From Okeania sp. (GTDB taxonomy: Bacteria > Cyanobacteriota > Cyanobacteriia > Cyanobacteriales > Microcoleaceae), in contig NZ_JAYKGW010000004.1 in NCBI RefSeq assembly GCF_035285525.1, positions 1 to 10,064 of the forward strand: a stretch of DNA of 10,064 nt. The letters are read 5' to 3'. Position 1 is the stretch's first letter, and each line of letters begins with the position of its first letter. Position numbers and translations under genes: made by a program. The notes beneath the pieces are model-generated. The model saw only the letters and a list, made by a program, of their open reading frames with translations, had not been told where the DNA came from and searched no databases. Positions 283 through 10,004 of the stretch are shown piece after piece.

Positions 283-648
283 TTAACTTACCACTATCCG
301 GTTCAGTAATTCATAAATAATAGAGTTAATAAAACCTAATGATAAAGCACCAATTAATGCACTCCAAAATCCCCAACGTAAACGAAATCCACTGACGAAC
401 CAAGCTGCTAAACCAAAGATAAGCATATTCATTAGTAGACTGAAAATAAAACCTGAAAGTACAATCTTAATAGGCAAAGCTAAACCAACTAAAACCGGAC
501 GAACCAGAGCATTTAACAATCCAAAAACTGCTGAAGAAGTCAACGCAATTCTAAAATCATCAATTTCTACTCCTGTAGGCAATTGAGAAATAATAAATAA
601 ACTAACCGCAGTGACAAACCAAAGTGTCAAAAGTTCTATAATACTCAT
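283..648 (-). CDS. Small integral membrane protein, phage holin family 4 / DUF360 (YvlD-like)
   Basis: 121 aa ORF with about four hydrophobic segments. The motif LLNALVRPVLVGLALP and the C-terminal GFW.SALIGAL pattern are typical of this family. Confidence 0.7.
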   Translation of the reverse strand: MSIIELLTLWFVTAVSLFIISQLPTGVEIDDFRIALTSSAVFGLLNALVRPVLVGLALPIKIVLSGFIFSLLMNMLIFGLAAWFVSGFRLRWGFWSALIGALSLGFINSIIYELLNRIVVS

Positions 649-669
649 TTTTTTCTCCTTAATTAATCT

Positions 670-704
670 AGCTATCAGCTTTTAGCATTCAGCATTTAGC
701 AAAT
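670..704. repeat. Heptamer array with AGCNNNN periodicity (agctatc agctttt agcattc agcattt agcaaat)
   Basis: 7-nt periodicity read directly. It sits just upstream of the holin-like gene. Confidence 0.75.
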
Positions 705-808
705 CTGGTTAAAATCTCAGGTATTTGATTCTAAAATAAAGTAAATATTTTAGTAGCTTTTAGAGATTAGTTAATATGTAAGCATTTCCTGCGGAATGCT
801 GCGCAAAC

Positions 809-836
809 AGCTATTAGCTGTCAGCTTTCAGTAAAA
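809..836. repeat. Heptamer array (agctatt agctgtc agctttc agtaaaa), left arm of an inverted pair
   Basis: 7-nt periodicity read directly. It is the reverse-complement type of the array at 937-964. Confidence 0.7.
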
Positions 837-936
837 GGAGAGAGTTTAAATCCAATATACAACTTTTGTAGTTTAGATTTAATTATGACTCAATTAGTAA
901 AGCTTTTATATCAAACTAAAAGCACTCTTTTGATAG

Positions 937-964
937 CTGTTAGCTGACGGCTGAATGCTTACGT
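937..964. repeat. Heptamer array in inverse orientation (ctgttag ctgacgg ctgaatg cttacgt), right arm of an inverted pair
   Basis: 7-nt periodicity read directly. gtaagcatt at 778 is mirrored by aatgcttac at 955-963. Confidence 0.7.
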
Positions 965-1082
965 TAATATAACGTTCAATCCTGAAAAAGACATATTTTC
1001 CTTAATGCACAAAAAGTCAGAAATTAGAACGGAATAGTTCTGGGTGGAAATTTCCTTTACTAACTTTTAAAAAACAATCTTG

Positions 1083-1117
1083 CTGACTGCTGAGTGCTAA
1101 TTGCTGAATGCTTATTT
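1083..1117. repeat. Heptamer array (ctgactg ctgagtg ctaattg ctgaatg cttattt)
   Basis: 7-nt periodicity read directly. It lies immediately downstream of the ychF stop on the minus strand. Confidence 0.75.
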
Positions 1118-1126
1118 TACAGAAAT

Positions 1127-2218
1127 CTAAACATTAAATCGGAAGAGCATAACATCCCCTTCCTTTACAAGATAATCTTTTCCTTCACTCCTCAATAAAC
1201 CTTTTTCCTTAGCAGCAGTCATGGAACCAGTAGCTACTAAATCCTCATAGGCAATTGTTTCGGCTCGGATAAAACCTCTTTCAAAATCTGTATGAATTAC
1301 ACCAGCAGCTTGAGGAGCTAACATTCCGACTTTAATCGTCCAAGCTTTTGTTTCTTTTTCTCCAGTAGTAAAATAAGTCCGCAATCCTAATAATTCATAA
1401 GTTGCTTTAATTAGAGATTTTAATCCGCCTTCTTCTACTCCTAAAGATTCTAAATAATCAGCTCTTTCTTCTTCTGGTAATTCTATTAATTCTGATTCTA
1501 CCTGAGCGGAAATTATCACAACTTGAGCATTTTCTATCGCAGCAATATTTCGGACTTTTTCCACCCAATCATTTCCACTTGCTAGGTCATCTTCTGAAAC
1601 ATTAGCAGCATAAATTATGGGTTTAGAAGTTAATAGATTTAAAGGCTTAATTATTAAAGATTCCTCTTCGTCTAAACCAGCCATTCTGACTGATTTACCT
1701 TCGTTTAAAATAGCCTCTAATTTTTCTAATACTTCTAGTTCTGCCTGAGCTTCTTTACTGGTACGAGCTTGTTTTTTAGTTCGTTCAATTCGTCGTTCTA
1801 CTTGAGCTAGATCGGATAAGGCTAATTCTAAATTAATTACTTCAATATCTCTGACTGGATCGACCGAACCAGAGACATGAATAATATCCTCACTATCAAA
1901 ACAACGAACTACTTGAACAATGGCGTCAACTTCTCGAATATTCGATAAAAATTGATTACCTAATCCTTCTCCTTTACTTGCTCCTTTTACTAAACCAGCA
2001 ATATCCACAAATTCTATTCTGGTAGGAACAGTTTGAACAGAATTAGAGATTTTACTCAATACATTTAGTCGCTCATCTGGCACTGCCACTACACCAACAT
2101 TGGGTTCGATTGTGCAAAATGGGAAGTTAGCGGCTTCTGCCTTGGCATTAGCAACTAAAGCATTAAATAAAGTAGATTTTCCGACGTTGGGTAGTCCGAC
2201 AATTCCAGCTCTGAGCAT
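1127..2218 (-). CDS. ychF: Ribosome-binding, redox-regulated ATPase YchF (Obg-like GTPase superfamily)
   Basis: 363 aa. It has the N-terminal P-loop GIVGLPNVGKSTLFNALV, then FPFCTIEPNVG, DIAGLVKGASKGEGLGNQFL, and the TGS-like C-terminus FIRAE...GKDY.V.DGDV..F.FNV. The length is canonical. Confidence 0.95.
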   Translation of the reverse strand: MLRAGIVGLPNVGKSTLFNALVANAKAEAANFPFCTIEPNVGVVAVPDERLNVLSKISNSVQTVPTRIEFVDIAGLVKGASKGEGLGNQFLSNIREVDAIVQVVRCFDSEDIIHVSGSVDPVRDIEVINLELALSDLAQVERRIERTKKQARTSKEAQAELEVLEKLEAILNEGKSVRMAGLDEEESLIIKPLNLLTSKPIIYAANVSEDDLASGNDWVEKVRNIAAIENAQVVIISAQVESELIELPEEERADYLESLGVEEGGLKSLIKATYELLGLRTYFTTGEKETKAWTIKVGMLAPQAAGVIHTDFERGFIRAETIAYEDLVATGSMTAAKEKGLLRSEGKDYLVKEGDVMLFRFNV

Positions 2219-2648
2219 AAATTTAAGTCAAAAATCAAAATTTAAAAGTTAAAAATTACTTCGCCCCACAGGATTCGACTGTGGTCAGTTAATTAAGATC
2301 AAAAAGTGAAAGGACTTGGTTTGAGCTAGTCCTGAAACAACTTTATAAGAATCTTCTGCCCTTGAATTAGAAGAGCAGTTAAAATTGCTTATCTACATTA
2401 GGATAGCAGAAAGAAAAAAAGAACCTGAGATTTATCACTTCAAGTTTCATTTCAAATTAGGAATTAAAAAATAAAAAACTATAGTTTGCTTTCTTTGTGA
2501 AATTGTGAGGTGAGCTACAGTGAAGAAATCTTAAATTTTGCACCGGGTGAAAAACATTTTTTATAAAAATTCACACTGAACAATCTCAAGTATTTCTCAT
2601 TTAAGAGACATCTCCTCGACTCAATATGGAAGAAGGAAAAATAATTGA

Positions 2649-2905
2649 TATTTAGGGCTGGCTGAAAAAATATGAAAGTATTGACAGATAAAAGTTTTAG
2701 CAATTTTATGTCTGGAAAAAGTATCAGCTTTTAGGTCAAAGAGGTGAAAAAAGTTAACAGAAAAAGTTTTGTTCTTGAGAAAAATTAAGAGACAATTTTT
2801 CTAGCTAATTCCTTTATAACTGCTATTCTCCCTGGATTGCAGGATTGCAGGATTGCTGGCTCAAACCCGCTACTAAAAGACTGAAGAAGCGCAAACCCTA
2901 TTTTA
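2649..2905 (+). mobile_element. MITE-like element with terminal inverted repeats, copy A (subtype with TTGACAGATAAAA and a GCGCAAACCCTA end)
   Basis: Aligns by eye along most of its length with copies at 6001-6224, 6219-6468 and 7756-7961. The 5' end tatttagggctggctga pairs imperfectly with the 3' end gcgcaaaccctatttta. No coding capacity. Confidence 0.5.
2834..2859. repeat. Octamer tandem repeat GGATTGCA x3 inside MITE-like copy A
   Basis: Read directly: ggattgca ggattgca ggattgct gg. It occupies the same relative position as the heptamer array in copy C. Confidence 0.8.
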
Positions 2906-2956: not shown

Positions 2957-2964
2957 GCGATCGC
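2957..2964. repeat. HIP1 octamer GCGATCGC
   Basis: Exact match to the highly iterated palindrome typical of cyanobacterial genomes. Used only as a taxonomic hint. Confidence 0.6.
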
Positions 2965-3136
2965 CACACCGATGCTTTGCTTATTTTTTACAAATATCTT
3001 TTTGAAAATATATTTAATAAGTTATAAGTAAAATCTAGATTAAATTTTATTAAGTTAGTAGCTTTTAGCCAGAAAATAAGTCAAAGTATTATTTAATTGC
3101 TACTTAAAATTATTAGACTAATAAAACTATTGCGCA

Positions 3137-3631
3137 ATGGTTGAACAAAGAATCATAGGAACTACTGAAGCTGCATATTTATCATGTATTTCACCGAAAC
3201 GTTTACGAGATTTATTATGCGAAGGTCGAGTGAAAAATGCTTGGAAGGAAAATGGCTTTTGGCACATACCTGTTTATGGAGCTAAAGGTGAAGAAATGCC
3301 AATCATTTTTCCTGGCACAAGAGGTCCGAAAGGAAATTGGTGTAAAGAAAAACGTACTAAACCTACTATGATTCATGTGAATCAACATAAGATAAAGGAA
3401 AATGCGAAAAATCCAGAAGAGGAATTGAAGCCTGTAATTTCTGTCAAGCAAACTAACCATAATTACTATGGTTTCCAATTAGAAATTAAAGGTCCTTGTA
3501 GGATTGTATATAGTCCTCATAACCCGGCAAAATGTGGTGCTCATTTGTGGATTGATACTTTTAGTAGGGTGCAATTTATAGATGTTAATTTCAATCCAAT
3601 TACCGCTTGTCGAGCCTACAAATACATATAG
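3137..3631 (+). CDS. Hypothetical protein with an N-terminal excisionase/MerR-type helix-turn-helix and an uncharacterised C-terminal domain
   Basis: 164 aa with an ATG start. The N-terminus TTEAAYLSCISPKRLRDLLCEGRVKNAWKENGFWHIP fits the HTH_17/Xis-like pattern (E-A-A..l.vs.r.l..l...G.l.a.k.g..W.i). I do not recognise the C-terminal ~90 aa (IHVNQHKIKEN...KGPCRIVYSPHNPAKCGAHLWIDT). Confidence 0.6.
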   Translation: MVEQRIIGTTEAAYLSCISPKRLRDLLCEGRVKNAWKENGFWHIPVYGAKGEEMPIIFPGTRGPKGNWCKEKRTKPTMIHVNQHKIKENAKNPEEELKPVISVKQTNHNYYGFQLEIKGPCRIVYSPHNPAKCGAHLWIDTFSRVQFIDVNFNPITACRAYKYI

Positions 3632-3760
3632 ATCAATGTAATTTGAACTCAAGTCAATTATAGAGAGATGTAATTTTCAATTAAGAAGATAAAATTTAGA
3701 TTTTTTTTGCCTCTCTGTCGTGCTAATCTGATAGTTAAACTTAACTATAGAGAACGACGG

Positions 3761-4810
3761 ATGGATAATGCTGCGAAAAATCAAGCCCTTGTAGATGCTT
3801 TAACCAATCTACCAGAGGACGCAAATGAACCGCAAGTTAGTAATATTTTTGCATCTAAATTATTTAATTTTTTAGGTTTTGAAGAAAATGAAAGAGTACC
3901 TGAATTTTCTACAGGAACTGGTACTCAAGCGGTCGATCATGCTCTACGTTTGAATAGGGAAAATGACATATTTAATCAAACAAGAACTAATCCAGATGTG
4001 CTTGTAGAATTAAAAGCTCGGAATATTAATTTAGCTGCTGGTTCAAAAGGATATAAAGAGATTGATAAACAAATAAAACGGTATTTATTAGCAGAAAAAT
4101 GTAGATCGGCGAAGTGGGGAATAATTAGCAATGGTAATCATATCCAATTATTTAGAAAGCATGGAAAAGTTATTCATCCGGTAACAGTTTGTCTGGAAAT
4201 TAATTTAGAAAATATTATTAATATTGCTACATTAATTAAAGAAAAAATTGATAGACCACGAAAAGCATTAACAGTAGCAGTTTATAATAGTAAAGGTGGG
4301 GTAGGAAAAACTACAACTACAGTTAATACCGCAGCAACTCTATCATTGTTGTATGGCAAAAAAGTTTTGATTGTAGATTTCGACCCTGACCAACGAGACC
4401 TAACAACTTCTCTAGCAATTCAAGCAGGTAAACCTACCTTTAATCAATGTTTGGTAAATGAAAGTATTAATATTATAGATGTAATTAAGCCATACAAAAC
4501 TAAATTTAATAAACTAAAAAAAGAAGTTGTTTTCGATGTAATTCCAATACCTAAAGATGAACCTCTCGAAGTCTGGGCTGAAGATAAATTGCGTCACGAA
4601 ATAAAATTTTCCAGGTTAAGTAAAATCTTAGAGCCATTAAAAAGTAACTATGATTATATCTTGATTGATTCTTCTCCCAACTGGCGAATTTTTAGTAAAA
4701 GTGCAATTTATGCTGCGGATGCAGTTTTAATGCCAGCCAAACATAACAACTTATTTTCCCTAGAAAATGCAGCTATAGCTATCAAAAAATATATACCTGA
4801 AGTTCAATAG
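3761..4810 (+). CDS. Fusion of a PD-(D/E)xK nuclease-like domain (HsdR N-terminal type) to a ParA/MinD-family ATPase; ends at an in-frame TAG inside the ATPase fold and is probably one gene with 4832-5128
   Basis: ATG at 3761; the TTG at 3707 in the ORF track is an unsupported extension. The N-domain has LFNFLGF, AVD(59)HAL, VLVE(83)LK(85), and GIISNGNHIQLFRK. The ATPase has the deviant Walker A SKGGVGKTT (nt 4292-4315), Walker A' VLIVDFDPDQRD, and Walker B YDYILIDSSPN. Confidence 0.7.
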   Translation: MDNAAKNQALVDALTNLPEDANEPQVSNIFASKLFNFLGFEENERVPEFSTGTGTQAVDHALRLNRENDIFNQTRTNPDVLVELKARNINLAAGSKGYKEIDKQIKRYLLAEKCRSAKWGIISNGNHIQLFRKHGKVIHPVTVCLEINLENIINIATLIKEKIDRPRKALTVAVYNSKGGVGKTTTTVNTAATLSLLYGKKVLIVDFDPDQRDLTTSLAIQAGKPTFNQCLVNESINIIDVIKPYKTKFNKLKKEVVFDVIPIPKDEPLEVWAEDKLRHEIKFSRLSKILEPLKSNYDYILIDSSPNWRIFSKSAIYAADAVLMPAKHNNLFSLENAAIAIKKYIPEVQ

Positions 4811-4831
4811 AATAGAAAAGATGGCGGACCT

Positions 4832-5128
4832 TTGGTTTTACCTATTTTCTTCAATGGTGAAAAAATTACAGAAGCTCAAATGAAAGAGGCTCAAGTTTAT
4901 ATTGATAAACTGATTAAGGATACTAAAAAAGACCCAAATCATAAATTTGATTTACTACCCTATTTTTATCCAAGTTATACTTCAGCAAATAAAAATAGAA
5001 AAATATTTCAATTACCTAATTATGCTTCTATTGCAAAATCGGCTTTTTCTCATGTACCTGCTGTTTATAAAGATCGGGTAGTTTTAGAATATTATAAGAG
5101 TTTGGTTAAGGAGTATTTTATACTATGA
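4832..5128 (+). CDS. C-terminal third of the ParA-family ATPase, in the same frame as 3761-4810 and separated only by TAG plus 7 sense codons
   Basis: Both ORFs are in frame 2. The read-through text ...IKKYIPEVQ*NRKDGGPLVLPIFFNGEK... matches the usual ParA segment (..l.i.Gil.t..d.r..). The tail IFQLPNYASIAKSAFSHVPAVYKDRVVLEYYKSLVKEY matches the ParA C-terminal helices. An independent start would need a TTG with no obvious RBS. Confidence 0.6.
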   Translation: MVLPIFFNGEKITEAQMKEAQVYIDKLIKDTKKDPNHKFDLLPYFYPSYTSANKNRKIFQLPNYASIAKSAFSHVPAVYKDRVVLEYYKSLVKEYFIL

Positions 5129-5664
5129 GTAGTTTGAGCGATGTTGGTAACTTAATGCACTTGTATATGTATAAGATTGAGTCTGGAGAAGAAATAAATG
5201 CTCCAGAATTTCTAATTTTATCAACGGCAAAAGTTCTGAATGAAACTGGTGGGAGAAACTGGATACCTGTAATTGTTAAAGAAGTTGGAGAAGATAAATA
5301 TCAAGTAATTGGCAATTCTTTTATTTTTGCTGTAGCTGAAGCTGCTGGTTTAGAAAAAGTTTGGTGTATTATTGCTGATGAAAGTGAGGAAACTGAGAAA
5401 ATTAGCAAAATTTTGTCAGGAGAAAAAACTCCACAAATAAATCTTTCTACTGCGACGAGAGATGAAATTAAAGTAGCACTTCAATACTTAATTGAAAAAT
5501 CAGGCAGCAAACTTAAAGGAGTAAAATTGCCAGTAGCTACAAATCGTATTGATGAAGCTCCGCGTCAGTATTGGAAAGATTTTAAACCTATCACAAAATT
5601 AGGATGTGGAATTACGACGGCTAAAGTTAATGCTTTAAAAGAAGTATTTTATCTGACTCCTTAA
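5125..5664 (+). CDS. Protein with a ParB-like N-terminal domain (arginine motif absent) and a C-terminal ComEA-like helix-hairpin-helix domain
   Basis: 179 aa. Its start overlaps the upstream stop (ATGA at 5125-5128). NWIPVIVKEVGEDKYQVIGNSFIFAVAEAAGLEKVWCII follows the ParB/Srx-fold layout (P-V-I-V ... Y.vI.G..r..Aa..aGl..v...I), but GNSF replaces GERR. The C-terminus INLSTATRDEI...KLGCGITTAKVNALKEVFYL resembles ComEA (HhH)2 (NiNtAt.eeL ... GIG...a..l). Confidence 0.6.
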   Translation: MSSLSDVGNLMHLYMYKIESGEEINAPEFLILSTAKVLNETGGRNWIPVIVKEVGEDKYQVIGNSFIFAVAEAAGLEKVWCIIADESEETEKISKILSGEKTPQINLSTATRDEIKVALQYLIEKSGSKLKGVKLPVATNRIDEAPRQYWKDFKPITKLGCGITTAKVNALKEVFYLTP

Positions 5665-5685
5665 CCAATAGCTAAACCTGAGAAA

Positions 5686-5919
5686 GTGAATCTTTCTATT
5701 GCTACAAAAGATGAAATTCAGGCCGCACTTAAATATTTAATTGAAAGTAGTAAACTTAAACAAATTGAATTAGCAAAAACAACAGAACGTATTACTGAAG
5801 CTCCACGTCAAAATTGGAAAACCTTAGAACCAATTACAAAATTAAAATGTGGAATTGGAAAAAGTAAGATTAATGCTTTAAAAGAAATATTTTATTTATT
5901 CGAGAGTACAGAGTTATAA
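5686..5919 (+). CDS. Second copy of the ComEA-like HhH domain, in frame with 5125-5664 behind a single TAA
   Basis: 77 aa from a GTG start. By eye it is roughly 60 percent identical to residues 105-179 of the upstream protein. Both ORFs are in frame 1, and the 21 nt between them contain no further stop. Confidence 0.5.
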   Translation: MNLSIATKDEIQAALKYLIESSKLKQIELAKTTERITEAPRQNWKTLEPITKLKCGIGKSKINALKEIFYLFESTEL

Positions 5920-6000
5920 GTGGAAAAAAATATTCCCTGACTTTTAGTGGAGAATAATGAATACTGGTTAAAGACTCTACATTTTTATCGAAATAATTAA

Positions 6001-6224
6001 TAATTAGGTCTTGCTGAATAAATCTAAAAGTTTTTATAAATAAAGGTTTTAGTCTTTTTAGGTTGGGAAAAAGTACCCGATTTTTAGCTATTTATGCTCA
6101 AAAAGTTAGGATTTTGGATAAACAAGCAGGGAAAAATCAAGGTAAAATTACCTCTCCTACTTTCTTTCTCTTCCCACAGTCCCCACCCCTCCCACACTCT
6201 AATTTTTTCAGCAATCCCTAATTA
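6001..6224 (+). mobile_element. MITE-like element with terminal inverted repeats, copy B
   Basis: The 5' end taattaggtcttgctgaataaa and the reverse complement of the 3' end, taattagggattgctgaaaaaa, match at about 19 of 22 positions. The interior aligns with copies A, C and D (tttttaggt, aaaaagtacc.g.ttttta, aaaaagt.taggatttt). Confidence 0.55.
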
Positions 6225-6468
6225 GGTCTGGCTGAGTAAATATCAAAGCTTTATCTGTAAAAGCTTCTAGCATTTTTAGGTCTCAAAAAAGTACCAGTTT
6301 TTAAGTCTTTCAAGCTAAAAAGTCTAGGATTTTCTGCTATAATTTAGCCTAAAATAAAGGGATAATTCTTCTGACTACCTCTTCTGTAATTTCTATTTCT
6401 CCTGGCTTCTGGCTTCTAGCTTCTGGCTCCTCCCCCTAAAAAAAGACTTTTTCAGCAAACACTAATTA
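6219..6468 (+). mobile_element. MITE-like element with terminal inverted repeats, copy C, abutting copy B
   Basis: Starts with taattaggtctggctgagtaaa and ends with ttttcagcaaacactaatta. The hexamer TAATTA at 6219-6224 is shared with the end of copy B, which creates the palindrome CCTAATTAGG. Confidence 0.55.
6402..6429. repeat. Heptamer tandem repeat CTGGCTT x4 inside MITE-like copy C
   Basis: Read directly: ctggctt ctggctt ctagctt ctggctc. Confidence 0.8.
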
Positions 6469-6487: not shown

Positions 6488-7603
6488 TTAAGCTTGTTTA
6501 TGTTTCCAGACTTTCCAACTTATATAAGCCAGTAAACCTGTAGCACTAAAAGCATAAATTGTACCACTAGGAACACCGGAAAAAGCCATTGCTAAACTTC
6601 CTACCCAAAGCGTTAATGAATAAATGAAAAAAACTGTCAATCTTTGAGATAAACCAGCATCTAATAAACGATGATGTAGATGACGTTTATCAGCAATAAA
6701 AGGAGATTTCCCATTTCGTAAACGGTCTAAAATTACTGCAGACATATCTAAAATTGGAACTGCTAAAATTAGATATGGTAAAAGAACAGAAGTAACCGCT
6801 GTTACTTTTACCAAACCTATTACTCCTACTCCTGCTAAAGTAAATCCTATATAGTAAGAGCCTCCATCCCCCATAAATATTTGAGCTGGATTAAAGTTAT
6901 AACGGAGAAAACCTAATGTTGCACCTGCTAAAGCTGCTGCTATTAAAGCTGCTGCTGGTTGATCCATAAATATACTCACAATTAACATCACAAAAGCTGC
7001 AATACCTGAAACACCAGCAGCTAAACCATCTACACCATCAATCCAATTAATAGCATTTGCCATACCTACCAACCAAATTACAGTTACAGGCAAACTTAAT
7101 ATATTAATATGTACTAATCCATAAAAAGGGATAGTCAAAAACTCAATTTGTACTCCAACTATCCAAGCTGTACTAGCAGCAATTATTTGCATAAACAATC
7201 TCAGTAGTGGTGATAAATTAAATAAGTCGTCTGCTAAACCTATCATAAAAAAAGCTAAACCACCGATTGTTACTCCCCAGATTTCAAACTCTTTTTCTGG
7301 AGGTAAAATATTACCACTAGCATCTATAAATCCTCCTAACCACCAAACAATTAAAAGAGCAATTAGGCTACCAAAAAAAATAGAAACTCCTCCCAAACGA
7401 ACAATTGGTTTTTGATGAATTTTACGACCGCCGGGATTATCGACTAGCCCCATTTTGAGACCAACTTTTTTGATTATTGGTGTCATTAAAAGTACCACTA
7501 AAGTCGAAATAACTAAAGTAATTAAATGGTACATATAATGAGGCACTTGAACTAATGGAGGATTAAGATTTAATAAGAAATAGTTAAGTTGGTATAGCAT
7601 CAT
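6488..7603 (-). CDS. Glycosyltransferase family 4 polyprenyl-phosphate sugar-1-phosphate transferase (WecA/Rfe/MraY family)
   Basis: 371 aa polytopic membrane protein. Motifs: GLVDNPGGRKIHQKPIVRLGG, ADDLFNLSP, ANAINWIDGVDGLAAG, and DKRHLHHRLLDAGLS. The true start could be the internal ATG giving MYHLITLV (about 7534). Confidence 0.85.
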   Translation of the reverse strand: MMLYQLNYFLLNLNPPLVQVPHYMYHLITLVISTLVVLLMTPIIKKVGLKMGLVDNPGGRKIHQKPIVRLGGVSIFFGSLIALLIVWWLGGFIDASGNILPPEKEFEIWGVTIGGLAFFMIGLADDLFNLSPLLRLFMQIIAASTAWIVGVQIEFLTIPFYGLVHINILSLPVTVIWLVGMANAINWIDGVDGLAAGVSGIAAFVMLIVSIFMDQPAAALIAAALAGATLGFLRYNFNPAQIFMGDGGSYYIGFTLAGVGVIGLVKVTAVTSVLLPYLILAVPILDMSAVILDRLRNGKSPFIADKRHLHHRLLDAGLSQRLTVFFIYSLTLWVGSLAMAFSGVPSGTIYAFSATGLLAYISWKVWKHKQA

Positions 7604-7610
7604 TAAATTC

Positions 7611-7673
7611 AGTTATCAGTTATTAGGTAAGCATTCAGCCGTCAGCTATTAGCTATCAGCTATTATCTATTAA
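7611..7673. repeat. Heptamer array (agttatc agttatt aggtaag cattcag ccgtcag ctattag ctatcag ctattat ctattaa)
   Basis: 7-nt periodicity read directly. It contains taagcattcagc, which recurs inverted at 7998-8010. Confidence 0.75.
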
Positions 7674-7755
7674 TTTTGAAGAAGGTAAAAGCCATCCTTG
7701 AAATTGAGAAAGAATAAAAAGTTACTGTATAAGTTTCCTTCCCGAAGCTCAGAAG

Positions 7756-7961
7756 TAATTAGAATTTGCTGATTAAATCTAAAAGCATTGACAGATAAAA
7801 ATTAAAGGCTTTTTTAGGTAACACAAAGTGACAATAAATTACTAAATTAATCTTTAAAACTCTAGATTTTTCCTCACCAAAGTGGAAAAAATTTAGAAAA
7901 ATTAACACCTGTAACTATTGCCTAAGCTGACCAACAAACTTTTGAGCGCAAACCCTAATTA
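7756..7961 (+). mobile_element. MITE-like element with terminal inverted repeats, copy D (same subtype as copy A)
   Basis: Begins with taattagaatttgctgattaaatctaaaagcattgacagataaaa and ends with gagcgcaaaccctaatta. It is shorter than the other copies and shares TTGACAGATAAAA and the GCGCAAACCCTA end with copy A. Confidence 0.5.
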
Positions 7962-7968
7962 TTAATTA

Positions 7969-8036
7969 CTAATTGCTGATAGATGATTGCTCATAACTGA
8001 ATGCTTATTTTTTTTAGTTATCAGTTATCAGTATCT
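7969..8036. repeat. Heptamer arrays (ctaattg ctgatag atgattg ctcataa ctgaatg cttattt, then agttatc agttatc agtatct)
   Basis: 7-nt periodicity read directly. The first block is the inverted counterpart of 7626-7673. Confidence 0.75.
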
Positions 8037-9727: not shown

Positions 9728-10004
9728 TGTTGGATTTCGTTGCCTCAACCCAACCTACAGTTTAAGTTAATTTAAGTTGATTTAAGTTACTAATAACTTT
9801 TGGTATTTGCTCAACTTCTAGTTCTCAAATTTCGGCAATTTTTTGAACAGAAAAGCCTTTTTTTTACAAGTATGTTGGGTTTCGTTGCCTCAACCCAACC
9901 TATAATTTAAGTTAATTTAAGTTACCAATAACTTTTGGTATTTGCTCAACTTCTAGTTCTCAAATTTCGGCAATTTTTTGAACAGAGAAGCCTTTTTTTA
10001 ACAA
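9728..10004. repeat. Tandem direct duplication, two units of about 142 and 132 bp at a 145 bp offset
   Basis: Unit 1 (9728-9869) and unit 2 (9873-10004) are near-identical. Both contain the hairpin GTTGG(A/G)TTtcgttgcctcAACCCAAC, tttaagtt(a/g)a decamer repeats (3 versus 2 copies), and ...ctcaacttctagttctcaaatttcggcaattttttgaacaga(a/g)aagcc. Confidence 0.85.

What the first reader, a model, noticed from the sequence alone, without database searches (positions are those of the whole stretch)
3137..5919. Candidate undescribed module: HTH protein, PD-(D/E)xK-ParA fusion, and a ParB-like-(HhH) protein
Three or four co-oriented genes lie between ychF and a GT4 cell-envelope gene. The central protein joins an N-terminal domain to a complete deviant Walker A ParA/MinD ATPase (SKGGVGKTT, VLIVDFDPD, YILIDSSP). 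That N-terminal domain carries the full type I restriction HsdR-N / Mrr-like PD-(D/E)xK signature: FLGF, D59 in AVDHAL, E83-x-K85 in VLVELKA, and SNGNHIQLF. The next gene is translationally coupled through an ATGA overlap at 5125-5128. It has a ParB/sulfiredoxin-fold N-domain followed by ComEA-like helix-hairpin-helix DNA-binding domains instead of a centromere-binding HTH. The first gene supplies an Xis/MerR-type HTH plus an unknown domain. Canonical parAB has no nuclease domain on ParA, and its ParB has the GxxRxxA CTP-binding motif. No replication, integrase or transposase gene accompanies the cluster. A nuclease tethered to a DNA-surfing ATPase, with a non-specific DNA-binding ParB-like partner, would suit a DNA-surveillance or defence role, or an exclusion or maintenance function of a mobile element. 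I cannot match this composition to a named system from memory.
Basis: partly seen in the sequence, partly recalled or inferred. Interest (0 to 1): 0.8.

Follow-up and report, generated by a model that had tools for sequence, protein, structure and literature searches.

The report
Nuclease-tipped ParA with ParB-like partner
The window holds a broken copy of a two-gene unit found widely in cyanobacteria, on chromosomes and plasmids, that pairs a DNA-riding ATPase carrying a restriction-type nuclease domain with a degenerate ParB-like protein; I found no description of it and its function is untested.

Summary
The three folds are real. The central protein is a complete ParA/Soj-type ATPase. Its N-terminal domain belongs to the HsdR-N PD-(D/E)xK family, and D59, E83 and K85 are conserved in homologues. 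The next protein has a ParB/sulfiredoxin-fold N-domain without the CTP motif.

The gene count is wrong. Only two genes form the conserved unit. Intact orthologues are 445-455 aa and about 227-311 aa.

The upstream HTH gene is a clade-restricted neighbour. The ComEA-like helix-hairpin-helix call is unsupported. The usual partner ends in a Rho_N/SAP domain that the Okeania lineage lacks.

In 62 of 64 loci with an intact fusion, the partner follows directly, usually overlapping the stop codon. No other neighbour is conserved and the flanks show no defence island. The unit also sits on eight cyanobacterial plasmid records, including a 12.6-kb CyRepA1 plasmid where it is the only ParA-type locus.

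Rare variants add HEPN or helicase domains. About 16% of copies are disrupted, and alleles are mosaic.

My best reading is an ATP-gated, DNA-bound nuclease module for replicon exclusion or defence (0.4). A nuclease-bearing partition system is the close rival (0.3). No PADLOC model or paper describes it.

The parts
3137..3631 (+). ORF1 (164 aa): a small protein with an Xis-like HTH N-terminus and a phage-family C-terminal domain. It is a clade-restricted neighbour, not part of the conserved unit.
   Evidence: Only 34 homologue clusters exist, all from Microcoleaceae or cyanobacterial sources; 3 distant ones carry PF12728. Residues 75-148 match phrog_8676 at E 2e-13. It lies upstream of the pair only in Okeania/Dapis-type loci. 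A paralogue sits elsewhere without the pair.
3761..5128 (+). Fusion gene (PD-(D/E)xK N-domain plus ParA ATPase), interrupted in this window. Intact homologues are 445-455 aa.
   Evidence: Read through the stop, the translation aligns end to end with 445-455-aa homologues at 52-80% identity.
3761..4264 (+). N-terminal HsdR-N-like PD-(D/E)xK domain (residues 1-168), with D59, E83, K85 and Q129.
   Evidence: HSDR_N_2 matches 12 of 13 homologues. D, ExK and Q are invariant or at least 90% conserved in 23 and 113 sequences, and are kept in divergent members. The model's secondary-structure order fits the fold. An exhaustive profile search finds only 134 representatives, nearly all as fusions of this type.
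4265..5125 (+). ParA/Soj-type deviant Walker A ATPase domain.
   Evidence: AAA_31 at E 1.8e-28. KGGVGKT, the DxD motif and the Walker B aspartate are invariant. Best Foldseek matches are Soj, ParA and McdA.
4808..4810 (+). In-frame TAG that truncates the fusion protein at residue 349 of 455.
   Evidence: Homologues have Q, R, E or K in this column. Orthologous DNA has AGA, AGG or CAA here.
5125..5128 (+). ATGA stop/start overlap that couples the two genes.
   Evidence: The same overlap class (offset -3 or -7) occurs in 48 of 62 loci.
5125..5919 (+). ParB-like partner gene, interrupted in this window. Intact orthologues are 260-265 aa.
   Evidence: The Okeania SIO2B3 orthologue is one 260-aa ORF.
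5125..5436 (+). Degenerate ParB/sulfiredoxin-fold N-domain (residues 1-104) without the GxxRxxA CTP motif.
   Evidence: Foldseek matches ParB 7bnk at E 2e-6, then Noc, PadC, KorB and Srx. ParB_N matches 98 of 99 homologues. The motif is replaced by GNSF(I/Y)xAVA.
5437..5661 (+). Helical middle domain, copy 1 (family unknown).
   Evidence: Direct repeats D3 and D7 link 5435-5652 to 5684-5895. No Pfam family matches it. Most homologues have one copy.
5662..5664 (+). In-frame TAA, a single C-to-T change from CAA (Gln).
   Evidence: All six aligned orthologous loci have CAA here.
5686..5919 (+). Helical middle domain, copy 2, now severed from the gene.
   Evidence: It lies in the same frame as 5125-5664. 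It is one continuous ORF with the rest of the gene in orthologues.

Best explanation
The locus is an inactivated copy of a two-gene module that is conserved across cyanobacteria.

Proposed mechanism:
- Gene 1 encodes a ParA-type ATPase. Like other ParA proteins, it should form an ATP-sandwich dimer that binds DNA non-specifically.
- Each subunit carries a catalytically intact restriction-type PD-(D/E)xK domain. ATP-driven dimerisation on DNA would therefore bring two nuclease domains together and license cutting.
- Gene 2 is translationally coupled to gene 1. It encodes a ParB-fold protein that has lost CTP binding. It carries helical and, in most lineages, Rho_N/SAP DNA-binding modules. It is proposed to be the DNA-bound regulator of the ATPase cycle.
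- The module is accessory and moves between chromosomes and plasmids. Its most likely role is cutting or excluding DNA, meaning foreign DNA or rival replicons, rather than plain segregation.

Shown by the analyses: the folds, the conserved catalytic and Walker residues, the strict pairing and coupling of the two genes, the chromosomal and plasmid distribution, and the decay of the window copy.

Inferred only: dimer-gated cleavage, the partner's regulatory role, and the biological target.
For: - Folds and conserved residues.
- Strict pairing: of 64 loci with an intact fusion, the partner follows directly in 62, and 48 of 62 show a stop/start overlap. Of 37 loci of at least 9 kb, 36 hold the fusion and 33 the partner, while no other neighbour recurs in more than 5.
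- The nuclease triad persists from cyanobacteria to Leptospira and in the plasmid subfamily, which reads PD..ENK..QLW.
- Variants carry typical conflict-system domains: HEPN_Swt1 + N-domain + ParA, still followed by a partner homologue (E 9e-22) and sitting beside Schlafen-AlbA, Fic and type ISP restriction genes; and DUF559 + SF1 helicase + N-domain + ParA.
- Accessory behaviour: 12 of 76 assessable copies are interrupted, an IS insertion cuts one copy, and this window has two nonsense codons.
- Rapid and mosaic evolution: the fusion is 67-77% identical where the flanking ychF is 94-97%, and the rankings disagree. One allele (P0008) has an N-domain 92% but a ParA domain 61% identical to the window.
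- Several copies can occur per genome and on mobilisable plasmids.
- The partner lacks the CTP motif and the basic ParA-activating N-terminal peptide of partition ParBs.
Against: - No experiment exists for any member.
- The pair is not enriched near known defence genes. The 138 immediate neighbours are mostly housekeeping or signalling genes.
- PADLOC has no model for it, and it is absent from the phage collection.
- The partner's N-domain is about 70% identical across cyanobacterial orders, which is unusually conserved for an immunity gene.
- Synteny is stable within the Okeania/Dapis clade.
- Leptospira species keep a solitary copy at 90% identity or more.
- On plasmid ABRG53g the pair is the only ParA-type locus, as expected of a partition system.
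- The HEPN and helicase fusions are 3 of 134 representatives.
Confidence: 0.4

Rival explanations
1. It is a genuine DNA partition system of cyanobacterial plasmids and chromosomes, a type-I-like ParAB variant. The PD-(D/E)xK domain replaces the N-terminal DNA-binding domain of type Ia ParA proteins and serves for site-specific binding to an operator or centromere, or for nicking. The CTP-independent ParB-like protein is the adaptor.
For: - The operon order is the classical parA-parB arrangement with translational coupling.
- The ParA domain is closest to Soj, ParA and McdA, and the partner has the ParB fold.
- The pair occurs on eight plasmid records. On the 12.6-kb CyRepA1 plasmid ABRG53g it is the only ParA-type locus.
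- The partner is highly conserved.
- The neighbourhoods are housekeeping genes.
- CTP-independent ParB-like partition proteins exist, for example SCP2 ParT (PMC12260392, abstract seen).
Against: - The catalytic D/ExK/Q residues are kept over very deep divergence, which pure DNA binding would not require.
- The partner has no HTH, no CTP motif and no basic N-terminal peptide.
- No shared repeat flanks the operons other than the genome-wide HIP1 motif.
- On Nostoc, Acaryochloris and P. galeata plasmids the pair coexists with ParM or a small ParA system, sometimes adjacent.
- Copies are often disrupted and alleles are mosaic.
- HEPN and helicase accretions occur.
Confidence: 0.3
2. It is a housekeeping DNA-processing factor of polyploid cyanobacteria. 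A nucleoid-bound nuclease would resolve or trim recombination or replication intermediates between chromosome copies, with the ParB-like protein as its DNA-loading partner.
For: - The distribution is mainly chromosomal, among housekeeping genes.
- Sequence conservation is high.
- Leptospira species keep a conserved solitary chromosomal copy.
- A Rad52-family gene lies near the copy on pLBA.
Against: - The gene is dispensable. It is pseudogenised here and in about 16% of sampled copies.
- Several copies occur, some plasmid-borne.
- No repair gene is a conserved neighbour.
- Allele mosaicism and fast divergence relative to ychF are unlike core repair genes.
Confidence: 0.1
3. It is a ParA/MinD-type positioning system for a non-DNA cargo, in the manner of McdAB for carboxysomes. 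The ParB-like protein would be the cargo adaptor and the nuclease-fold domain a catalytically silent interaction module.
For: The ParA domain resembles Cyanothece McdA structurally (6non, E 5e-13). Many orphan ParA/MinD ATPases position protein cargos (PMC11407121, abstract seen).
Against: - No cargo gene is a conserved neighbour in 37 long loci.
- The partner's domains are DNA-type (ParB fold and Rho_N/SAP).
- The catalytic residues are not degenerate.
- The pair occurs on small plasmids.
Confidence: 0.05

Closest known systems
Type I ParABS partition systems, especially type Ia (P1 ParA, F SopA), whose ParA has an N-terminal DNA-binding extension
   Same: A deviant Walker A ParA is followed by a translationally coupled ParB-fold protein. 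The ATPase carries an extra N-terminal domain. The system occurs on both chromosomes and plasmids.
   Different: The N-terminal extension is a PD-(D/E)xK nuclease fold with an intact triad, not a winged helix-turn-helix. The partner lacks the CTP motif (GxxRxxA), an identifiable HTH and the basic LG-R/K-GL peptide. No centromere-like repeats were found.
CTP-independent ParB-like partition protein ParT of Streptomyces plasmid SCP2 (PMC12260392)
   Same: It shows that a ParB-like partner of a ParA can work without CTP binding.
   Different: I made no sequence comparison with ParT. The ParA of SCP2 is not reported to carry a nuclease domain.
Defence systems that combine a ParB-fold sensor with an ATPase and a nuclease: Menshen NsnABC, and GmrSD/SspE (ParB-DUF262 plus nuclease) (PMC12065111)
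   Same: The logic is the same: a ParB-fold DNA-binding component, an NTPase and a nuclease effector. Some variants show domain accretion.
   Different: The families differ. These systems use an NTP-binding DUF262 rather than a degenerate ParB_N, an ABC ATPase rather than ParA/MinD, and PIN, BECR or HNH effectors rather than an HsdR-N PD-(D/E)xK domain. No PADLOC model of these systems matches.
Nuclease domain of type I restriction HsdR (Pfam HSDR_N / HSDR_N_2)
   Same: Same domain family and same D...ExK...Q motif. In both cases the domain is tethered to a DNA-dependent NTPase.
   Different: The motor is a ParA dimer switch, not an SF2 translocase. No methyltransferase or specificity subunit accompanies it.
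McdAB carboxysome-positioning system of cyanobacteria
   Same: It is a cyanobacterial ParA-type ATPase with a small partner. The structural match to McdA is E 5e-13.
   Different: The partner here has a ParB fold, unlike McdB. The ATPase carries a nuclease domain. The pair is not linked to carboxysome genes.

Membership tests
ParA/MinD (deviant Walker A) ATPases | Deviant Walker A motif KGGxGK[ST] with the signature lysine, plus the Walker A' and Walker B aspartates | tested here: met
   SKGGVGKTT, DFDPD and ILIDS are present in the window. K178, G179-G182, K183, T184, D206, D208 and D303 are invariant in 23 sequences; in 113 sequences most stay invariant and the rest are conserved in at least 90%.
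ParA/MinD (deviant Walker A) ATPases | ParA/Soj fold | tested here: met
   The model has pLDDT 92.8. Foldseek matches are Soj 6iub at E 6.6e-16, ParA 8ray and McdA 6non. AAA_31 matches at E 1.8e-28.
PD-(D/E)xK nucleases, HsdR-N / HSDR_N_2 family | Profile membership | tested here: inconclusive
   The window copy scores 19.6-21.4 bits, below the cut-off of 25. Family-level support is good: 12 of 13 homologues match (best E 1.3e-7). Leptospira P0366 passes both cut-offs (28.6 and 31.6 bits) and P0320 scores 29.5 bits.
PD-(D/E)xK nucleases, HsdR-N / HSDR_N_2 family | Core alpha-beta-beta-beta-alpha-beta topology, with D at strand 2 and (D/E)xK at strand 3, conserved among homologues | tested here: met
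   Model elements in order are H24-38, E46-51, E58-63 (D60), E81-85 (E84, K86), H97-110 and E120-124. D is invariant, and E, K and Q are at least 90% conserved in 113 sequences. The motif is kept in divergent members. No fold search of the isolated domain was possible.
PD-(D/E)xK nucleases, HsdR-N / HSDR_N_2 family | Metal-dependent nuclease activity | not testable with these tools
   This needs biochemistry.
Canonical ParABS partition system | ParB CTP-binding box II (GxxRxxA) | tested here: not met
   The aligned position reads GNSF(I/Y)xAVA in 99 homologues.
Canonical ParABS partition system | Basic N-terminal ParA-activating peptide on ParB (LG-R/K-GL) | tested here: not met
   The N-terminus reads MSNLSDIGNLMHLY, with no conserved basic residue before the fold begins.
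Canonical ParABS partition system | Centromere-binding HTH in ParB | tested here: inconclusive
   No HTH family is detected. The helical middle domain is of unknown family. The Foldseek alignments to ParB that extend beyond the N-domain have rmsd 9-17 Å.
Canonical ParABS partition system | Repeated centromere-like sites next to the operon | tested here: inconclusive
   The only k-mers shared among 69 upstream and 49 downstream flanks are HIP1, GCGATCGC. Lineage-specific sites would escape this test.
Canonical ParABS partition system | Stabilises its replicon | not testable with these tools
   Circumstantial only: it is the only ParA-type locus on the 12.6-kb plasmid ABRG53g.
Known anti-phage defence systems (PADLOC-DB 2.0) | Proteins match the models of a named or candidate system | tested here: not met
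   The only hit is a 60-residue Walker A match to PDC-M28B (27.6 bits). ORF1 and the partner have no significant hit.
Known anti-phage defence systems (PADLOC-DB 2.0) | Location in defence islands | tested here: not met
   Among 138 immediate neighbours from 37 loci, no bona fide defence family recurs. The PADLOC hits are generic (cysteine desulfurase, HTH/M78 pairs), and the top Pfam families are GAF, Uma2, ABC_tran and Response_reg. No background rate was computed.
Menshen (NsnABC) | ParB-DUF262 NsnA, ABC-ATPase NsnB and inPIN-nuclease NsnC | tested here: not met
   No Nsn model matches. The domain families differ (PMC12065111).
McdAB | A McdB-type partner and linkage to carboxysome genes or function | tested here: not met
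   The partner has a ParB fold. No carboxysome gene is among the conserved neighbours.

The most novel reading that the evidence does not exclude
The module could be a partition-derived system for telling self from non-self DNA.

- The ParB-like protein would mark its own replicon and locally trigger ATP hydrolysis. That would evict the ParA-nuclease before it can cut.
- DNA without partner sites, such as incoming plasmids, phage or a rival replicon, would keep the ATP-bound dimer long enough for the paired PD-(D/E)xK domains to cleave it.

This would be immunity or incompatibility built on the kinetics of a ParA gradient. It would explain at once the plasmid and chromosomal copies, the intact nuclease triad, the loss of CTP binding and the HEPN or helicase accretions.
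Probability: 0.2. Interest if true: 0.85.

Novelty: new variant of a known kind. Interest (0 to 1): 0.6.

Why it matters
ParA/ParB pairs are the textbook machinery for moving DNA and organelles in bacteria. None is known to carry a nuclease.

This family is widespread in a major phylum: the partner has 882 homologue clusters at 90% identity, and full-length fusions occur in Nostocales, Oscillatoriales, Pleurocapsales, Chroococcidiopsidales, Leptolyngbya-type lineages and Gloeomargarita. Standard surveys miss it, because both diagnostic domains score below Pfam's cut-offs (HSDR_N_2 about 20 bits against 25; ParB_N about 16 against 26.3).

If it is a partition system, it would be a cyanobacterial segregation machine. 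That bears on how these polyploid cells and their many plasmids are inherited, and on the design of stable vectors. If it is an exclusion or defence system, it would be the first built on a ParA switch. That could help explain barriers to transformation and conjugation in cyanobacteria.

The copy in this window is itself a dead gene pair.

Tried and rejected
1. The genome-contig scan with the full-length alignment picked the generic Walker A peptide as its pattern and returned almost only unrelated ParA genes.
2. A profile search of the N-domain and of the partner against PDB sequences gave only chance-level hits.
3. Foldseek of the whole fusion model (PDB and BFVD) reports only the ParA part. 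The N-domain could not be searched alone, and no further structure job was available.
4. Stop-codon reassignment as the cause of the two in-frame stops is rejected. ORF1 ends in TAG, the partner ends in TAA and the fusion ends in TGA. Orthologues have sense codons at both positions. Sequencing error cannot be excluded.
5. The ComEA helix-hairpin-helix assignment is rejected.
6. A k-mer search for a centromere-like motif found only HIP1.
7. I tested for asymmetry of decay as a toxin/antitoxin signature. The fusion was disrupted with the partner intact in 6 loci, against 1 for the reverse. My own binomial estimate, allowing for gene length, gives p about 0.25, so I make no claim.
8. Rfam and tRNA scans of the window found nothing.
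9. The phage collection holds neither the fusion nor the partner.
10. The nsDNA-binding residues of the ParA domain could not be checked, because sequence alignments to Soj stop at about residue 340.
11. Seven literature searches and four papers read found no description of the fusion.

Full report
**What is in the window**

The contig is from Okeania sp. Its three ORF products are exact NCBI entries, P0003, P0132 and P0241. On the plus strand between ychF (1127-2218, minus strand) and a Glycos_transf_4 gene (6488-7603, minus strand) lie five ORFs:
- ORF1, 3137-3631
- a 367-aa ORF ending at 4810
- a 98-aa ORF, 4832-5128, in the same frame
- a 179-aa ORF, 5125-5664
- a 77-aa ORF, 5686-5919, again in the same frame

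Translating through the stops shows that only two genes underlie the last four ORFs. Each is cut by one in-frame stop codon: TAG at 4808-4810 and TAA at 5662-5664.

In Okeania sp. SIO2B3 and Dapis sp. M229 the same synteny holds: ychF, ORF1, then the fusion gene, then the partner. There the fusion is one ORF of 451 or 466 aa and the partner one ORF of 260 or 261 aa. The TAA is a single C-to-T change from the CAA found in all six aligned orthologues. The TAG column holds Q, R, E or K in homologues.

Stop-codon reassignment is excluded, because TAG, TAA and TGA all terminate genes here. So the window carries a decayed copy, unless both stops are sequencing errors.

**Checking the three folds**

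*ParA domain.* The Walker A, A' and B motifs are complete. AAA_31 matches at E 1.8e-28. An AlphaFold model of the 80%-identical intact homologue P0001, built on 113 sequences, has pLDDT 92.8 and pTM 0.92. Its best PDB matches are H. pylori Soj (E 6.6e-16), ParA and Cyanothece McdA.

*N-domain.* The window copy is sub-threshold for HSDR_N_2. Even so, 12 of 13 homologous N-domains match it (best E 1.3e-7) and 8 of 13 match HSDR_N. A Leptospira member passes both gathering scores. The model gives the alpha-beta-beta-beta-alpha-beta core, with the aspartate in strand 2 and ExK in strand 3. D59 is invariant, and E83, K85 and Q129 are invariant or at least 90% conserved in 23 and 113 sequences. I could not run a fold search on the isolated domain.

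*Partner.* Its model has pLDDT 91.9. The best matches are M. xanthus ParB (E 2e-6), Noc, PadC, KorB and sulfiredoxin. ParB_N matches 98 of 99 homologues weakly. The CTP-binding GxxRxxA is replaced by GNSF(I/Y)xAVA, and there is no basic N-terminal peptide.

The rest of the partner is a roughly 75-residue helical domain of no known family. It occurs once in most lineages and twice in the Okeania, Dapis and Trichodesmium lineage. In 92 of 99 homologues it is followed by a C-terminal Rho_N/SAP/HeH domain, which the Okeania version lacks. The ComEA-type helix-hairpin-helix call is not supported.

**The conserved unit is two genes**

A metagenome scan seeded with the N-domain gave 80 loci. Together with three genome loci, the N-domain is directly followed by the ParA domain wherever the sequence allows. 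Of 64 loci with an intact fusion, the partner follows immediately in 62:
- 48 intact
- 13 cut by the contig end
- 1 short

Of the two without it, one (L100) has a contig that ends too soon to tell. In 48 of the 62 the partner's start overlaps the fusion's stop. Anabaena PCC 7108 has the fusion alone, beside Mu-like prophage genes.

Clustering all ORFs of the 37 loci of at least 9 kb shows the fusion in 36 and the partner in 33. No other family appears in more than 5.

ORF1 occurs upstream only in the Okeania/Dapis-type loci, with two weak, differently placed relatives. Its family has only 34 clusters, all from Microcoleaceae or other cyanobacteria. Paralogues occur elsewhere without the pair. 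Its C-terminal half matches a phage family of unknown function. ORF1 is a lineage-specific neighbour, possibly a regulator, and not a core part.

**Distribution**

Full-length fusions at 52-80% identity come from Okeania, Trichodesmium, Dapis, Lyngbya, Symploca, Nostoc, Anabaena, Fischerella, Scytonema, Nodularia, Pleurocapsales, Aliterella, Phormidesmis, Stenomitos and others. Many lie on megabase contigs.

The partner has 882 clusters. An exhaustive profile search of 1.84 billion representatives finds only 134 proteins with this N-domain, and almost all full-length ones are ParA fusions of 430-500 aa. So the fusion is old and the domain is essentially private to it.

Outside the main group, divergent members occur in Candidatus Synechococcus spongiarum and in marine metagenomes. 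Saprophytic Leptospira carry the gene solitary on the chromosome.

Chromosomal contexts are ordinary genes with scattered toxin-antitoxin pairs. Among 138 immediate neighbours, no genuine defence family recurs.

**Plasmids**

The pair is on two mobilisable Nostoc sp. UHCC 0870 plasmids, next to a small integrase gene. A ParM/StbA system is annotated on both; on the smaller plasmid a second ParA is annotated as well.

On Acaryochloris pREB8, a small ParA pair lies 1 kb downstream.

A distant subfamily sits on three further replicons. In it the N-domain matches at E 4e-9 to 2e-11, the whole fusion at about 1e-41 to 1e-47 and the partner at about 1e-20 to 1e-27, and the PD..ENK..QLW motif is kept. 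The replicons are:
- Leptolyngbya boryana pLBA
- Pseudanabaena galeata pPg_01
- the 12.6-kb CyRepA1 plasmid ABRG53g of Pseudanabaena sp. ABRG5-3

On ABRG53g no other ParA-like ORF or recognisable partition gene exists. Neither gene is found in the phage collection.

**Signs of accessory, fast-changing behaviour**

- Twelve of 76 assessable fusion genes are interrupted.
- One copy is cut by an IS.
- A second Okeania-type copy (L086, P0020) has an independent in-frame TGA about 11 codons from the window's TAG.
- Within the syntenic clade, ychF is 94-97% identical while the fusion is 67-77% and the partner 83-88%. The ranking of loci differs between ychF and the fusion.
- Alleles are mosaic. P0008 shares 92% of the N-domain but 61% of the ParA domain with the window, whereas P0001 shares 74% and 84%.
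- Three representatives add domains typical of conflict systems: HEPN_Swt1 + N-domain + ParA, SF1 helicase + N-domain + ParA, and DUF559 + SF1 helicase + N-domain + ParA.
- The HEPN form is still followed by a partner homologue (E 9e-22). It lies beside Schlafen-AlbA, Fic and type ISP restriction genes.
- In the helicase fusions the N-domain triad looks partly degenerate.

**Interpretation**

What is shown: a ParA switch, a restriction-type nuclease domain with its catalytic residues under selection, a CTP-less ParB-fold partner with DNA-type accessory domains, obligatory coupling of the two genes, and mobility between chromosomes and plasmids.

What is inferred: ATP-dependent dimerisation of ParA on DNA would juxtapose two nuclease domains, in the way dimeric restriction enzymes work. 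The partner would control the ATPase cycle.

For the biological role I weigh two readings.
- *Exclusion or defence (0.4).* This is favoured by the conserved triad, the partner's missing partition hallmarks, the HEPN and helicase accretions, the decay rate, the mosaicism, and coexistence with other par systems.
- *Partition (0.3).* This is favoured by the operon grammar, the plasmid ABRG53g, the high conservation of the partner, and the non-island contexts.

A DNA-processing housekeeping role (0.1) and positioning of a non-DNA cargo (0.05) are less likely.

**Comparison with known systems**

The module works most like a type I ParAB pair but fails three defining ParABS features: the CTP motif, the activating peptide and a detectable HTH. 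I therefore do not file it as a ParABS member.

It resembles Menshen and GmrSD-type systems in logic only (PMC12065111), and no PADLOC model fits it. Searches of the held literature found no description. A recent ParB-fold survey used Pfam gathering cut-offs (PMC12704722), which these partners do not reach.

**Verdict**

This is a real, widespread, apparently undescribed variant of the ParA/ParB theme. Its function is unresolved, and the window holds a dead copy. Interest 0.6.

Noticed in passing
window 2639-2732, 5991-6084, 6209-6302, 7756-7829: A dispersed intergenic repeat of about 75-95 nt (71-78% identity between copies) lies on both sides of the three-gene region and beyond the GT4 gene. 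A copy also lies between ychF and ORF1 in Okeania sp. SIO2B3 (L003 5078-5162, opposite orientation). It is probably a MITE-like genome repeat, not a boundary of a cassette.
   Followed up: partly
window 9728-10004: A tandem duplication of about 135-145 nt (94-96% identity) lies upstream of glyA. Its first 32 nt (TGTTGGATTTCGTTGCCTCAACCCAACCTAC, a hairpin-forming motif) also occur at 91% identity immediately after the fusion gene's stop in Anabaena PCC 7108 (L001 7379-7409). The meaning is unknown.
   Followed up: partly
window 650-1120, 2835-2860, 6404-6430, 7628-8010: Short tandem heptamer-like runs occur (GGATTGC..., GGCTTCT..., GCTGA/TCAGC-rich blocks), and inverted copies flank the GT4-to-glyA intergenic region. 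They resemble cyanobacterial STRR-type repeats.
   Followed up: no
window 2959-2966: A HIP1 palindrome (GCGATCGC) lies upstream of ORF1. HIP1 was the only k-mer shared by the flanks of the module across loci.
   Followed up: yes
L086 about 2392-2394 (protein P0020, 360 aa): A second Okeania-type copy of the fusion gene has its own in-frame TGA about 11 codons downstream of the window's TAG, while its partner gene is intact. Two independent truncations fall at nearly the same point, just after the helix that ends the conserved ParA core.
   Followed up: partly
L174 8001-10956; proteins P0340, P0339, P0327: Rare variants prefix the nuclease-ParA protein with HEPN_Swt1, with an SF1 helicase, or with DUF559 plus an SF1 helicase. 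The HEPN form keeps the ParB-like partner and sits near Schlafen-AlbA, Fic and type ISP restriction genes.
   Followed up: partly
window 3137-3631 and L171 6001-6525: ORF1 belongs to a small multi-copy family of Microcoleaceae. At least four paralogues occur in one metagenome-assembled genome. Its C-terminal domain matches PHROG 8676, of unknown function, which suggests a phage or mobile-element origin.
   Followed up: partly
window 283-648: A Phage_holin_4_2 family membrane protein gene lies next to ychF. This pairing is conserved in Okeania sp. SIO2B3 and Dapis sp. M229.
   Followed up: no
L004 9298-10094: In Chroococcopsis gigantea a transposase-like gene pair (two minus-strand ORFs; my reading from their sequences is IS5-family, no family scan was run) is inserted between the fusion gene and its partner. 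It removes the last residues of the fusion protein.
   Followed up: no
protein P0063: One full-length homologue is labelled Actinomycetota in NCBI, while all other named hits are cyanobacterial. It is probably a binning error in a metagenome-assembled genome.
   Followed up: no
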